Assembly (NCBI RefSeq): GCF_048403405.1
Contig: NZ_CP183129.1
Direction: 5' to 3' (one strand)
From: Escherichia coli
GTDB taxonomy: Bacteria; Pseudomonadota; Gammaproteobacteria; Enterobacterales; Enterobacteriaceae
DNA length: 64,000 nucleotides
The position numbers are program-made. Positions 46,201-49,200 of this stretch are shown here, piece by piece (within the stretch, counting starts at the first letter, position 1; every line of letters starts with the position of its first letter).

Positions 46201-49200
46201 TTCAGGAATGTGCGCATAGCTGGTAACAATATCGTTTTTGCTGCATGTTCTACAGTAGTAATACGTATTGTCCCGGATGGGCGGTTCTGCAGATCGCTCA
46301 GGGATGTCAGGGCAGAATCTATGTCATGCAACATAGGGCCAAGAACAGACAAAAGATGCTCGCCCGCTTCAGTGGGTACAACGCTGCGCGTGGTTCGCGT
46401 CAGAAGCCGCAATCCCAATCGTTCTTCTATACGGCGCACTATCTGGCTTAAAGCTGACTGCGCCATGCTCAGGCGGGCTGCTGCGCGAGTGAAGCTACGC
46501 TCCTCTGCAACGACGACAAACGCCATCAGATCAGCGATTTCTTCACGCTTCATTCAGTATCTCCATACAATCTATTAATCATTTAAATGATAGGTCTAAT
46601 CATAATTTAGGGTCTAATCAACTTAATGATCAATATCTATAGTGATATCACCAACCGTCAAAACGAACCGACAACTCCATGAGGAACGGAATGATGAATA
46701 ATAAAGTCAGCTTCACTAACAGCAATAATCCAACCATCTCTTTGTCTGCAGTGATCTATTTCCCTCCAAAATTTGATGAAATCCGTCAGTATCCGGCAAT
46801 TGTGGTATCTCACCCAGGTGGGGGCGTTAAAGAGCAAACGGCTGGAACCTATGCCGAAAAACTGGCGGAAAAGGGATTTGTCACTATTGCTTATGACGCA
46901 TCTTATCAAGGTGAAAGCGGCGGCGAGCCGCGTCAGTTAGAAAACCCATACATTCGTACTGAAGACGTCAGTGCCGTGATTGATTACCTGACAACGCTTT
47001 CTTATGTCGACAATACCCGAATTGGTGCGATGGGAATTTGTGCCGGTGCAGGATATACAGCCAATGCTGCAATTCAGGATCGCCGCATCAAGGCCATCGG
47101 TACTGTTAGTGCGGTCAATATTGGTTCGATGTTCCGTAATGGTTGGGAAAACAATGTGAAATCTATTGATGCCCTACCATACGTTGACGCGGGTTCAAAC
47201 GCCCGAACCAGCGATATTAGTAGCGGAGAATACGCCACTATGCCACTGGCACCAATGAAGGAGTCCGATGCGCCGAACGAAGAACTGCGTCAGGCCTGGG
47301 AGTATTACCACACCCCTCGCGCGCAGTATCCAACAGCACCGGGTTACGCTACTTTGCGCAGCCTTAACCAGATTATTACCTATGATGCTTACCATATGGC
47401 GGAAGTGTACCTGACTCAGCCGATACAGATTGTGGCGGGCAGCCAGGCAGGGAGCAAATGGATGAGTGACGACCTGTACGATCGAGCATCAAGCCAGGAT
47501 AAACGCTATCACATTGTTGAAGGCGCAAACCATATGGATCTTTATGACGGCAAAGTCTATGTGGCTGAAGCAATTTCAGTATTAGCGCCGTTCTTTGAGG
47601 AAACTCTGTAATGAAACATATTCAAATCCGCAATAGTGATATGGCCTGGCATATTACTGCCAATAATCTGGGAAAAGTTTCATGAAAAATGTACTGATTC
47701 TTGGTGCTGGCGGTCAGATAGCCCGCCATGTGATTAATCAACTGGCAGATAAACAAACCATTAAACAAACTTTATTTGCCCGTCAGCCAGCAAAAATCCA
47801 CAAACCCTATCCCACTAATAGCAAGATTATTATGGGGGATGTACTGAATCATGCAGCACTGAAGCAGGCCATGCAGGGACAGGATGTTGTGTATGCCAAC
47901 CTTACGGGGGAAGATTTAGATATTCAGGCAAATTCAGTGATCGCTGCGATGAAAGCCGGTGATGTTAAACGTCTGATCTTTGTTCTTTCCCTCGGTATTT
48001 ATGATGAAGTTCCAGGAAAATTTGGCGAATGGAATAATGCAGTTATTGGTGAGCCCCTAAAACCATTCCGCAGGGCTGCGGATGCAATTGAGGCTTCTGG
48101 ACTGGAATATACAATTCTTCGCCCTGCCTGGCTGACTGATGAAGATATTATTGATTATGAGCTTACCTCACGCAATGAACCATTCAAAGGTACGATCGTA
48201 TCACGTAAGAGTGTCGCTGCATTAATTACAGATATCATCGATAAACCTGAGAAACACATTGGTGAGAATATAGGCATCAATCAACCCGGGACTGATGGTG
48301 ATAAGCCATTCTTCATGTAAATCAATTATATAGCTACCATCGTACTGTACTATGTGCAGTACGATTTATTAAACTTATTAAGGTGAACTGATCAATCAGA
48401 TGCGATTAACATGTGTAGAACCAGTAAGAATAAAATACGCCATGTATATAACATTACGACAATTCTAATATCTGCACATCAATGAAAATGCAAACAACTT
48501 CCATCAAAAAAGTGATACAAGATCGATAACATAGCGTTGAAGAAAAGGATTTGATAATCCGCAAAATTTGCACAACACTGCCTGTAATACTTCCTGAACC
48601 AGAGACGATCATGACCGTAACTCGCCCACGCGCCGAACGCGGCGCATTTCCGCCCGGAACAGAACATTACGGACGTTCATTATTGGGCGCGCCGTTAATC
48701 TGGTTTCCGGCCCCTGCAGCCAGTCACGAAAGTGGTTTGATTCTGGCTGGCACTCACGGTGATGAAAACTCTTCGGTCGTCACGCTCTCCTGTGCTCTGC
48801 GGACGTTGACACCGTCTTTGCGCCGCCATCATGTGGTGCTGTGTGTGAATCCTGACGGCTGCCAGTTGGGGTTACGGGCCAATGCTAATGGTGTGGATTT
48901 AAACAGAAACTTTCCGGCGGCGAACTGGAAGGAAGGTGAAACCGTTTATCGCTGGAACAGCGCCGCTGAAGAACGTGATGTCGTATTGCTGACAGGTGAC
49001 AAACCTGGCTCCGAACCTGAAACCCAGGCGCTGTGCCAGCTTATACACCGCATTCAACCCGCCTGGGTGGTCTCATTCCACGATCCGCTGGCCTGTATTG
49101 AAGATCCCAGACACAGCGAATTAGGCGAATGGCTGGCCCAGGCGTTTGAATTGCCTCTGGTAACCAGCGTCGGTTATGAAACGCCTGGCTCTTTCGGCAG

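What the first reader, a model, noticed from the sequence alone, without database searches (positions are those of the whole stretch)
47682..48320. Intact 212-aa NAD(P)-binding ORF where K-12 has ymjC/ymjD pseudogene remnants
A continuous ORF with a GAGGQIA Rossmann motif lies between ycjY and mpaA. To my recollection the K-12 reference has only pseudogene fragments here, so this may be the functional ancestral form of a gene in the pgrR-regulated murein-peptide cluster.
Basis: partly seen in the sequence, partly recalled or inferred. Interest (0 to 1): 0.3.

Follow-up and report, generated by a model that had tools for sequence, protein, structure and literature searches.

The report
Intact ymjC reductase gene, truncated in K-12
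This is an ordinary, already annotated NAD(P)H-binding reductase gene that about half of E. coli strains keep intact and K-12 lost to a 660-bp deletion, and it belongs to a mobile regulator-hydrolase-reductase cassette rather than to the neighbouring cell-wall-peptide genes.

Summary
Window 47682-48320 (+) is an uninterrupted 212-codon ORF with a GAGGQIA Rossmann motif. It matches Pfam NAD_binding_10 over its full length (E 2.7e-54). MG1655 keeps only its first 46 codons, because a 660-bp deletion removed window 47821-48480.

It is not new. NCBI's PGAP pipeline annotates it as "SDR family oxidoreductase". The exact protein occurs on at least 1000 public contigs. A 98%-identical Shigella protein has a solved structure (PDB 3QVO).

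Among 5426 complete E. coli genomes, about 2900 carry the full-length gene region, 2292 carry the K-12 deletion and 174 lack the whole block.

- The window is an intermediate form, not the ancestral one. It has already lost a second alpha/beta-hydrolase gene, whose remnant (ymjD) lies at 47611-47685.
- The gene is the last member of a four-gene cassette: pgrR, ycjY, hydrolase 2 and the SDR gene. The same cassette occurs in Salmonella/Klebsiella, Serratia and a conjugative Klebsiella plasmid, never next to murein-peptide genes.
- In E. coli the cassette sits between mppA and mpaA, bracketed by a 37-nt direct repeat.

The gene is under strong purifying selection (dN/dS about 0.05). Its substrate is unknown. 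Interest is low.

The parts
47682..48320 (+). Intact 212-aa NAD(P)H-binding atypical SDR gene, the full-length form of K-12 ymjC. GAGGQIA at residues 8-14; invariant Arg34 after the second beta-strand.
   Evidence: ORF; Pfam PF13460 184 bits, full length; 98% identical to PDB 3QVO; annotated WP_000800179.1 'SDR family oxidoreductase' in the identical record; dN/dS 0.03-0.05.
47821..48480 (.). Segment missing in K-12 MG1655: codons 47-212 of the SDR gene plus the first ~160 bp of the SDR-mpaA spacer, including the stem-loop.
   Evidence: BLAST of the window against the MG1655 locus; K-12 sequence across the junction; the junction is present in 2292 of 5426 genomes.
47611..47685 (+). 24-codon remnant ORF (MKHIQIRNSDMAWHITANNLGKVS), the counterpart of K-12 ymjD. 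It is left over from an in-frame ~867-bp deletion of a second alpha/beta-hydrolase gene. Its ATG overlaps the ycjY stop (TAATG) and its TGA overlaps the SDR start (ATGA).
   Evidence: Translation; alignment with K-12 and with both ends of hyd2 in strain 09-00049; breakpoints.
46691..47611 (+). ycjY, alpha/beta hydrolase (306 aa), first gene of the operon.
   Evidence: Annotation of the identical record; Pfam DLH, Peptidase_S15 and Abhydrolase hits; PDB 5XB6 'Uncharacterized protein YcjY'.
45654..46553 (-). pgrR (ycjZ), a LysR-type regulator transcribed divergently from ycjY.
   Evidence: 86-87% identical orthologues travel with the cassette in other genera.
46576..46630 (.). Two palindromic boxes, TAATCATTTAAATGAT (46576-46591) and TAATCAACTTAATGAT (46615-46630), in the pgrR-ycjY spacer. 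Candidate PgrR operator.
   Evidence: Pattern search. The spacer is 87% conserved across E. coli, Salmonella/Klebsiella, the plasmid and Serratia, against about 79% for the coding DNA.
48339..48365 (+). 12-bp stem-loop 19 nt after the SDR stop codon, followed by UUUAUUAAA. Candidate weak terminator or 3' stabiliser. Deleted in K-12.
   Evidence: Fold -16.2 kcal/mol, z -4.3, 0 of 200 shuffles as good. Kept with compensatory changes in the Salmonella/K. aerogenes cassette. Not called by the consensus terminator scan.
45375..45411 (.). Left copy of the 37-nt direct repeat that brackets the pgrR-ycjY-SDR block.
   Evidence: the repeat finder family D1; alignment with the cassette-less isolate AF57.
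48486..48522 (.). Right copy of the 37-nt direct repeat (92% identical; first 30 nt identical), 89 nt upstream of mpaA.
48611..49339 (+). mpaA (murein tripeptide amidase). A neighbour, not part of the cassette.
   Evidence: Annotation; Peptidase_M14; adjacent to mppA in cassette-less genomes.

Best explanation
The ORF is a functional gene for a small (212 aa) atypical short-chain reductase of the NAD(P)H-binding / biliverdin-IX-beta-reductase-like kind. It is the last gene of the operon ycjY-(hydrolase 2)-SDR, which is transcribed divergently from its LysR regulator pgrR. These four genes form a horizontally mobile cassette. In E. coli the cassette lies inside the divergent mppA/mpaA promoter region, between two copies of a 37-nt sequence. 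The locus then decayed in steps. First, an in-frame 867-bp deletion removed hydrolase 2 and left the ymjD remnant; this is the state of the window. Then a 660-bp deletion removed codons 47-212 of the SDR gene and the stem-loop after it, leaving ymjC; this is the K-12 state. How it works (inferred, not shown): the Rossmann motif GAGGQIA and the invariant Arg34 bind NADPH. The enzyme transfers a hydride to a small carbonyl, quinone or other conjugated substrate connected to the ester or lactone chemistry of the two hydrolases. PgrR represses the operon from two palindromic boxes until an unknown ligand appears. Shown here: the intact gene, its family, the deletion history, the conservation and mobility of the cassette, and purifying selection. 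Inferred: cofactor preference, substrate class and regulation.
For: The ORF is intact and matches the family over its full length. The nearest solved relatives are 3QVO (98%), the Veillonella SDR 3R6D/4HNG, human BLVRB and ChuY/ShuY, by sequence and by fold. The K-12 deletion is mapped and its junction is in 2292 genomes. Form C with both hydrolases is in 1272 genomes and is colinear over 3.6 kb at 79% identity with the cassette in Salmonella/K. aerogenes, Serratia and plasmid pKGB1a. In those carriers all four proteins are conserved together (PgrR 86-87%, YcjY 93%, Hyd2 85-87%, SDR 81-83%) while the flanking genes differ. Pseudomonas, Halomonas and Stenotrophomonas carry the hydrolases and the SDR with a more distant LysR, plus OYE, flavodoxin-like and classical SDR genes. 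The cassette-less junction in 174 genomes holds one copy of the repeat. dN/dS is 0.03-0.05 between genera, and the two intact E. coli alleles differ by 6 synonymous and 1 nonsynonymous change. Stop and start codons overlap. The operator boxes are conserved. PgrR binding at ycjY/ycjZ and its negative autoregulation are reported for K-12 (PMC5934670, PMC10505187).
Against: No substrate or activity is known for this protein, for YcjY (PDB 5XB6, 'uncharacterized') or for hydrolase 2. The window strain lacks hydrolase 2, so the pathway may already be incomplete. The gene has been lost or damaged repeatedly in E. coli: the K-12 deletion in 42% of genomes, plus truncated and frameshifted alleles, which argues for weak selection in this species. 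The direct repeat does not show which way the event went: cassette-less genomes could be the ancestral empty site or a precise excision. dS between genera is saturated, so the ratios are approximate. The stem-loop has a poor U-tract and, in the Salmonella/K. aerogenes version, is followed by another gene, so it may not terminate transcription efficiently.
Confidence: 0.85

Rival explanations
1. One reading: the reductase is a working component of the PgrR-regulated murein-peptide recycling and catabolism cluster (mppA, mpaA, ycjG), and K-12 has lost one step of that pathway.
For: In E. coli it lies between mppA and mpaA/ycjG. The K-12 literature lists ycjY-ymjDC-mpaA and ycjG in the PgrR regulon (PMC5934670, citing Shimada 2013). 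A core ATCA-N6-TGAT palindrome resembling the PgrR boxes lies 95 nt upstream of mpaA, at 48503-48516.
Against: Of the eight non-E. coli genome contexts and one plasmid context examined, the SDR gene sits with YcjY-type hydrolases in eight (with a LysR gene in seven), and none contains mppA, mpaA or ycjG homologues. 174 E. coli genomes keep mppA-mpaA-ycjG with no cassette, and 42% have lost the SDR gene. The palindrome upstream of mpaA matches only the core, about one chance match is expected in a window this size, and it is imperfect in K-12 and in AF57. The known pathway (MppA uptake, MpaA amidase, YcjG epimerase) has no described redox step (established knowledge).
Confidence: 0.08
2. The ORF is open but no longer useful in this strain: a pseudogene in the making, stranded after the loss of its partner hydrolase 2.
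For: Hydrolase 2 is deleted in the window. The same lineage later lost the SDR gene in K-12-type strains: 3948 genomes share the ymjD junction, and 2292 of them also carry the ymjC deletion. Other truncated or frameshifted alleles exist.
Against: There is no stop or frameshift. All 94 family-invariant positions of alignment A2 are kept by construction, and the allele differs from a form-C allele by 6 synonymous and 1 nonsynonymous change. About 1650 complete genomes keep this exact arrangement with the gene region intact. Start/stop overlaps that would allow translational coupling are preserved.
Confidence: 0.12
3. It is an NmrA-like redox-sensing regulator that binds NAD(P)(H) without catalysis, rather than an enzyme.
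For: Pfam NmrA scores above its threshold (46.3 bits against 27). The depositors of 3QVO called it 'NmrA family protein'. It has no classical SDR Tyr-x3-Lys motif (read directly from the sequence).
Against: The NmrA match covers only residues 2-100, about a third of the 298-position profile, whereas NAD_binding_10 matches end to end. The closest characterised relatives by fold are enzymes that also lack Tyr-x3-Lys: BLVRB and the anaerobilin reductase ChuY. The gene sits inside an operon of enzymes with its own LysR regulator.
Confidence: 0.07

Closest known systems
E. coli K-12 ymjC (pseudogene remnant) and ymjD (21-codon remnant)
   Same: Same locus and same DNA. The first 46 codons of the window ORF correspond to K-12 ymjC at about 98% nucleotide identity. 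The window's 24-codon ORF at 47611-47685 shares the ymjD deletion junction.
   Different: The window keeps codons 47-212 and 160 bp of downstream spacer that K-12 lacks. ymjD derives from a different gene (hydrolase 2), not from the SDR gene. In the window a TAA-to-AAA change extends it from 21 to 24 codons.
PDB 3QVO, 'Rossmann-fold NAD(P)-binding family protein' / 'NmrA family protein' from Shigella flexneri (structural genomics, released 2011)
   Same: Orthologue, 98% identical over all 212 residues and the top fold match.
   Different: It differs at four positions, including G115V at a position that is invariant in the 14-sequence family alignment. No function was assigned, and no paper in the searched library mentions the structure.
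Human biliverdin-IX-beta reductase / flavin reductase (BLVRB, PDB 1HDO) and E. coli ChuY/ShuY anaerobilin reductase (5FFQ, 5GUY)
   Same: Single-domain proteins of about 205-215 aa in the NAD_binding_10 family, with no Tyr-x3-Lys motif. Foldseek probability 1.0, TM about 0.7; sequence E about 1e-5 to 1e-6.
   Different: Only about 20% identity. The substrate-binding loop (residues 105-123), although the sequence is highly conserved within this family, is modelled with low confidence. The genomic context is hydrolases rather than haem-utilisation genes. A shared substrate should not be assumed.
Veillonella parvula SDR (PDB 3R6D, 4HNG, 4HNH, 4IPT)
   Same: The closest non-orthologous solved relative: E 1.5e-19, 30% identity, aligned end to end, including the C-terminal GT-x-DKP-F motif.
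   Different: It is also uncharacterised, so it adds no functional information.
PgrR (YcjZ) regulon of E. coli K-12 ('regulator of peptidoglycan recycling', Shimada et al. 2013, Genes Cells 18:123)
   Same: The gene lies in the operon that starts at the PgrR-bound ycjY/ycjZ spacer (PMC5934670, PMC3946193). The operator boxes are present in the window.
   Different: The published operon ycjY-ymjD-ymjC-mpaA was defined in K-12, where the deletion has removed the SDR 3' end and the stem-loop that separate ycjY from mpaA in the window. Outside E. coli, PgrR orthologues accompany the hydrolase/SDR cassette with no murein genes nearby.

Membership tests
Pfam PF13460 NAD_binding_10 (NAD(P)H-binding, atypical SDR) | Score above the curated gathering threshold with full-length profile coverage | tested here: met
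   184.3 bits against a cut-off of 27.2; residues 8-189 match profile positions 1-184 of 184.
Pfam PF13460 NAD_binding_10 (NAD(P)H-binding, atypical SDR) | N-terminal glycine-rich dinucleotide-binding motif (GxxGxxG/A) in a Rossmann fold | tested here: met
   GAGGQIA at residues 8-14. G8, A9, G11, Q12 and I13 are invariant in 14 homologues. The predicted strand-helix pattern is Rossmann-like and the fold matches BLVRB and 3QVO.
Pfam PF13460 NAD_binding_10 (NAD(P)H-binding, atypical SDR) | Actual NAD(P)H binding and hydride transfer | not testable with these tools
   Needs biochemistry. NADPH preference is only inferred from the invariant Arg34 after strand 2.
Classical SDR (adh_short type) | Catalytic Tyr-x3-Lys motif with the upstream Ser | tested here: not met
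   The five tyrosines (Y43, Y71, Y107, Y143, Y159) give Y-x4-K and Y-x5-K but no Y-x3-K (sequence). There is no adh_short Pfam hit. It should not be filed as a classical SDR.
NmrA-like family (PF05368) | Match over the NmrA profile, including the C-terminal domain | tested here: inconclusive
   46.3 bits is above the cut-off of 27, but only residues 2-100 match profile positions 3-104 of 298. The protein is 212 aa against about 300 for NmrA-type proteins.
Orthologue of K-12 ymjC | Same chromosomal position and colinear sequence with the K-12 remnant | tested here: met
   Window 46501-47820 aligns to the MG1655 locus at 97.8% and resumes at 48481. The K-12 fragment aligns to residues 1-46.
pgrR-ycjY-hyd2-SDR cassette (defined in this study) | Divergent LysR gene followed by two paralogous alpha/beta-hydrolase genes and the SDR gene, conserved as a unit in different genomic surroundings | tested here: met
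   Present in E. coli form C, Salmonella/K. aerogenes, Serratia and the IncF plasmid pKGB1a, with 81-93% protein identity. Looser versions occur in Pseudomonas, Halomonas and Stenotrophomonas. The window itself lacks hydrolase 2.
Murein-peptide recycling gene set (mppA, mpaA, ycjG) | Co-occurrence with these genes outside E. coli, or dependence of these genes on the cassette | tested here: not met
   tblastn found no MpaA or YcjG homologue in any of the seven non-E. coli genomic loci tested, and the plasmid locus L015 has none annotated. 174 E. coli genomes have mppA-mpaA-ycjG without the cassette.
PgrR regulon | Transcription from a PgrR-controlled promoter | not testable with these tools
   Sequence evidence only: overlapping stop/start codons link it to ycjY, and the palindromic boxes are conserved. 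PgrR binding at ycjY/ycjZ is reported for K-12 (PMC5934670). There are no expression data for a strain with the intact gene.

The most novel reading that the evidence does not exclude
PgrR may not really be a peptidoglycan-recycling regulator. On this reading it is the dedicated regulator of a mobile hydrolase/reductase cassette that happened to land between mppA and mpaA. Its reported control of mpaA in K-12, through the 'ycjY-ymjD-ymjC-mpaA operon', would be a side effect of the 660-bp K-12 deletion. That deletion removed the end of the SDR gene and the stem-loop after it, and so fused the cassette's transcript to mpaA. In strains like the window strain, mpaA would then be transcribed independently of PgrR.
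Probability: 0.3. Interest if true: 0.4.

Novelty: already known. Interest (0 to 1): 0.15.

Why it matters
The gene itself adds little. It is a routinely annotated accessory gene with a solved orthologue structure, and its truncation in K-12 is on record as the ymjC pseudogene. There are two modest points of value. First, the K-12 reference is degenerate at this locus through two nested deletions, so conclusions drawn from K-12 about operon structure and the PgrR regulon may not transfer to the roughly 54% of E. coli genomes with the gene region intact. Second, the conserved LysR + two hydrolases + reductase cassette is a well-defined unit of unknown function, with crystal structures available for two of its proteins (3QVO, 5XB6), which makes it a tractable target for function discovery.

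Tried and rejected
1. The consensus terminator scan found no + strand terminator after the SDR gene. The stem-loop emerged only from folding, and its U-tract is weak, so I call it a candidate only.
2. An Rfam scan of 45200-48700 at E<=0.1 found nothing, so there is no known RNA element in the AT-rich spacers.
3. NCBIfam gave only sub-threshold hits (best 24 bits against a cut-off of 400), so there is no specific functional equivalog.
4. Shimada et al. 2013 (PMID 23301696) is not in the held library, so I could not read the experimental basis for PgrR control of mpaA. I rely on secondary listings (PMC5934670, PMC3946193).
5. A literature search for 3QVO, 5XB6 and PA2218 found no functional study. 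The mentions of YcjY are a filamentation phenotype on over-expression (PMC3614548) and a speculative PHB-polymerase prediction (PMC3709699). Neither bears on the SDR gene.
6. A truncated 171-aa allele (P0043) suggested that a prophage integrates inside the gene, but that junction is in none of the 5426 complete genomes. I dropped it as a rare or assembly-specific event.
7. The 162-aa allele (P0042) comes from a metagenome scaffold with a local duplication near the gene start. I did not pursue it.
8. I first estimated the K-12-type count by subtraction (about 2512). Because that figure also included cassette-less and other forms, I replaced it with a direct junction count (2292).
9. Eight per-protein context look-ups and one plasmid hit answered the context question.
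Full report
OBSERVATION. It matches Pfam NAD_binding_10 (PF13460) from end to end (E 2.7e-54, 184 bits against a cut-off of 27). Weaker partial matches go to NmrA and to Epimerase. NCBIfam gives no specific functional model. In the 100%-identical record of strain TUM14771 the gene order is mppA(-), pgrR(-), ycjY(+), "SDR family oxidoreductase" WP_000800179.1 (+), mpaA(+), ycjG(-), tpx.

K-12 COMPARISON. In an MG1655 record the same position holds only a 138-nt pseudogene, "NAD-dependent dehydratase; incomplete; missing C-terminus". BLAST of the window against that locus shows colinearity up to 47820 and again from 48481. K-12 therefore lacks about 660 bp: codons 47-212 of the gene plus the first 160 bp of the downstream spacer. 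The K-12 reading frame runs through the junction to give a 60-aa product, 46 native residues followed by 14 unrelated ones.

THE WINDOW IS NOT THE ANCESTRAL STATE. A third form of the locus exists (strain 09-00049, and O157:H7, O111 and O145 strains). It carries a second alpha/beta-hydrolase gene of 310 aa between ycjY and the SDR gene. This gene, hyd2, is 41% identical to YcjY. The window keeps only the first ~55 nt and the last ~20 nt of hyd2. The result is a 24-codon ORF at 47611-47685 whose ATG overlaps the ycjY stop (TAATG) and whose TGA overlaps the SDR start (ATGA). K-12 has the same deletion junction, with a stop three codons earlier (21 codons); this is ymjD. So ymjD is a remnant of hyd2 and not of the SDR gene, and the decay ran from form C (both hydrolases and the SDR) to form B (the window) to form A (K-12).

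COUNTS. These are direct junction counts among 5426 complete E. coli genomes.
- Form C, hyd2 present: 1272.
- Forms A and B together, ymjD-type junction: 3948.
- Form A, K-12 deletion junction: 2292, nearly all at >=99% identity, consistent with one inherited event.
- Form B by subtraction: about 1656.
- Full-length SDR gene region: 2895 genomes.

A fourth form has no cassette at all.

A CASSETTE, NOT A MUREIN GENE. Isolate AF57 has mppA and mpaA directly adjacent, separated by a 182-bp spacer, with no pgrR, ycjY or SDR gene. That junction occurs in 174 genomes, including IAI39, CE10 and an ST648 strain. Alignment shows that the AF57 spacer equals the window's left flank, one copy of a 37-nt sequence, and the window's right flank. 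The window has two copies of that sequence (45375-45411 and 48486-48522; 92% identical, first 30 nt identical), and they bracket the 3.1-kb block. The block has lower G+C (0.35-0.50) than mpaA and ycjG (about 0.55).

Outside E. coli the same four genes occur with the same spacing and orientation in:
- Salmonella/K. aerogenes contigs;
- Serratia marcescens;
- the conjugative IncF plasmid pKGB1a of Klebsiella variicola.

In the Salmonella/K. aerogenes and Serratia loci, protein identities to E. coli are PgrR 86-87%, YcjY 93%, Hyd2 85-87% and SDR 81-83%. All three carriers, the plasmid included, are colinear with E. coli form C at 76-79% DNA identity over 3.5-3.6 kb. Their flanking genes are unrelated to one another and include no mppA, mpaA or ycjG.

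More distant versions occur in P. aeruginosa (beside Trb conjugation genes), Halomonas and Stenotrophomonas. These keep both hydrolases and the SDR gene (55-73% protein identity) with a more divergent LysR regulator (about 35%). Between them, these versions and the Salmonella/K. aerogenes one add classical SDR, flavodoxin-like, OYE-type flavin reductase and CMD genes. A Burkholderia locus has both hydrolases and the SDR gene but no LysR homologue in the stretch fetched. In a Mesorhizobium contig the SDR gene sits alone beside a Tn3 transposase and resolvase.

The functional partners of this gene are therefore the two hydrolases and PgrR. Its adjacency to the murein-peptide genes is specific to E. 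coli.

REGULATORY SIGNALS. The pgrR-ycjY spacer is more conserved across genera (87% mean column identity) than the coding DNA. It holds two palindromes of the form TAATCA-N5-ATGAT, at 46576-46591 and 46615-46630, which is typical LysR operator architecture. This agrees with the reported PgrR binding at ycjY/ycjZ (PMC5934670) and with PgrR's negative autoregulation (PMC10505187).

The overlapping stop and start codons argue that the SDR gene is co-transcribed and translationally coupled with ycjY. Nineteen nucleotides after its stop codon lies a 12-bp stem-loop (48339-48365; -16.2 kcal/mol, z -4.3). It is kept with compensatory changes in the Salmonella/K. aerogenes cassette. Its U-tract is poor, the consensus scan did not call it a terminator, and in the Salmonella/K. 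aerogenes version another gene follows it, so I rate it only as a candidate terminator or 3' stabiliser.

The K-12 deletion removed this stem-loop but left the right-hand repeat and the 125 bp upstream of mpaA intact. The operon "ycjY-ymjDC-mpaA" listed for K-12 (PMC5934670) may therefore owe its continuity to the deletion. This is an inference I could not test, and Shimada et al. 2013 is not held.

WHAT THE PROTEIN IS. It is 98% identical to PDB 3QVO (Shigella flexneri, structural genomics, no assigned function). An AlphaFold model (pLDDT 75, pTM 0.79; the loop at 105-123 is modelled with low confidence) retrieves 3QVO first. Next come an uncharacterised Veillonella SDR (30% identity), human biliverdin-IX-beta/flavin reductase and the anaerobilin reductase ChuY (about 20% identity, TM about 0.7).

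The family is strongly conserved: 94 invariant positions in 14 sequences from gamma-, beta- and alpha-proteobacteria. These include GAxGQI, R34, LSLGIYDEVPGKFGEWNN, RPAW and the C-terminal DGDKP-x-FM. There is no Tyr-x3-Lys motif, so it is an atypical SDR and not a classical one. dN/dS is 0.03-0.05 against the Salmonella/Klebsiella and plasmid orthologues (dS is saturated). Against a form-C E. coli allele there are 6 synonymous changes and 1 nonsynonymous change.

The gene is functional and constrained where it is retained. In E. coli as a whole, however, it has been lost or damaged repeatedly.

MOST LIKELY MECHANISM. The protein is probably an NADPH-dependent reductase: the Rossmann motif is shown, and NADPH preference is inferred from Arg34. 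It would act on a small carbonyl, quinone or other conjugated substrate linked to the ester or lactone hydrolysis carried out by YcjY and Hyd2, under PgrR repression that an unknown ligand relieves. The accompanying OYE, flavodoxin-like and classical SDR genes in the larger versions point to xenobiotic or electrophile detoxification or catabolism. The substrate class is a low-confidence inference (about 0.3).

NOVELTY AND SCORE. This is already known. The exact protein is on at least 1000 public contigs, under the names "SDR family oxidoreductase" or "NAD(P)H-binding protein". An orthologue structure is in the PDB. K-12 ymjC is recorded as a pseudogene. "ymjC" already appears as a variable pan-genome gene (PMC9602453), although that label may refer to the K-12-type fragment.

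The additional points from this work are of modest specialist interest:
- the cassette boundaries and its direct repeats;
- the nested deletions;
- the conserved operator;
- the possibility that PgrR control of mpaA is an artefact of the K-12 deletion.

Interest is 0.15.

Noticed in passing
window 45375-45411 and 48486-48522: A 37-nt direct repeat (first 30 nt identical) brackets the whole pgrR-ycjY-SDR block. 174 E. coli genomes (IAI39, CE10, an ST648 strain, AF57) have a single copy and no block, with mppA directly next to mpaA. Each of the two divergent genes keeps one copy upstream, so the duplication may preserve both native promoters.
   Followed up: yes
window 48503-48516: The right-hand repeat contains ATCAAAAAAGTGAT, an ATCA-N6-TGAT palindrome with the same core as the two candidate PgrR boxes, 95 nt upstream of mpaA. 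The left copy, K-12 and AF57 each have one or two mismatches in it. It could be a weak PgrR site or chance, since about 1.25 matches are expected per window.
   Followed up: partly
L016 1978 onward (draft assembly GCA_035886965.2), equivalent to window ~48158: In one draft E. coli genome, similarity to the SDR gene stops at about codon 159 and phage DNA follows, with a Nu1 terminase gene nearby. This gives a 171-aa truncated product. The junction is in none of the 5426 complete genomes, so it is a rare insertion or an assembly artefact.
   Followed up: partly
L003 3995-4011 compared with window 47677-47681: Form-C strains carry 12 extra bases (ATGAGAAATATT) just before the SDR start codon. These create an in-frame upstream ATG, which explains the 216-aa annotated variants (MRNIMKN...). 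The window and K-12 lack these 12 bases.
   Followed up: partly
PDB 3QVO compared with window residues 94 and 115: The solved Shigella protein has Val at position 115, where Gly is invariant in 14 homologues across three proteobacterial classes. The structure may therefore represent a slightly degenerate allele. The window allele has Gly94 where most E. coli alleles and 3QVO have Cys.
   Followed up: no
L004, L005, L006 at about 9000-11000: In three Salmonella/K. aerogenes contigs with otherwise identical surroundings, the slot just downstream of the extended cassette holds different anti-phage-type gene pairs: a cyclase with AGS_C plus PycTM in two contigs, and SMODS with AGS_C plus SLATT_6 in the third. 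It looks like a small variable defence islet.
   Followed up: no
PMC9602453 (literature): A pan-genome study reports 'ymjC' as over-represented in lactic-acid-resistant E. coli and more prevalent in phylogroup A (89.8%) than in B1 (41.1%). K-12 is phylogroup A and has only the fragment, so the label probably tracks the truncated K-12-type allele rather than the intact gene. That would reverse the meaning of the reported association.
   Followed up: no
window 45412-45653 and 48398-48485: The outermost non-coding parts of the E. coli block are AT-rich (the window's lowest G+C, about 0.35, is in the right-hand spacer). They have no counterpart in the cassettes of other genera and no Rfam match or sizeable ORF. 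Their origin is unexplained.
   Followed up: partly
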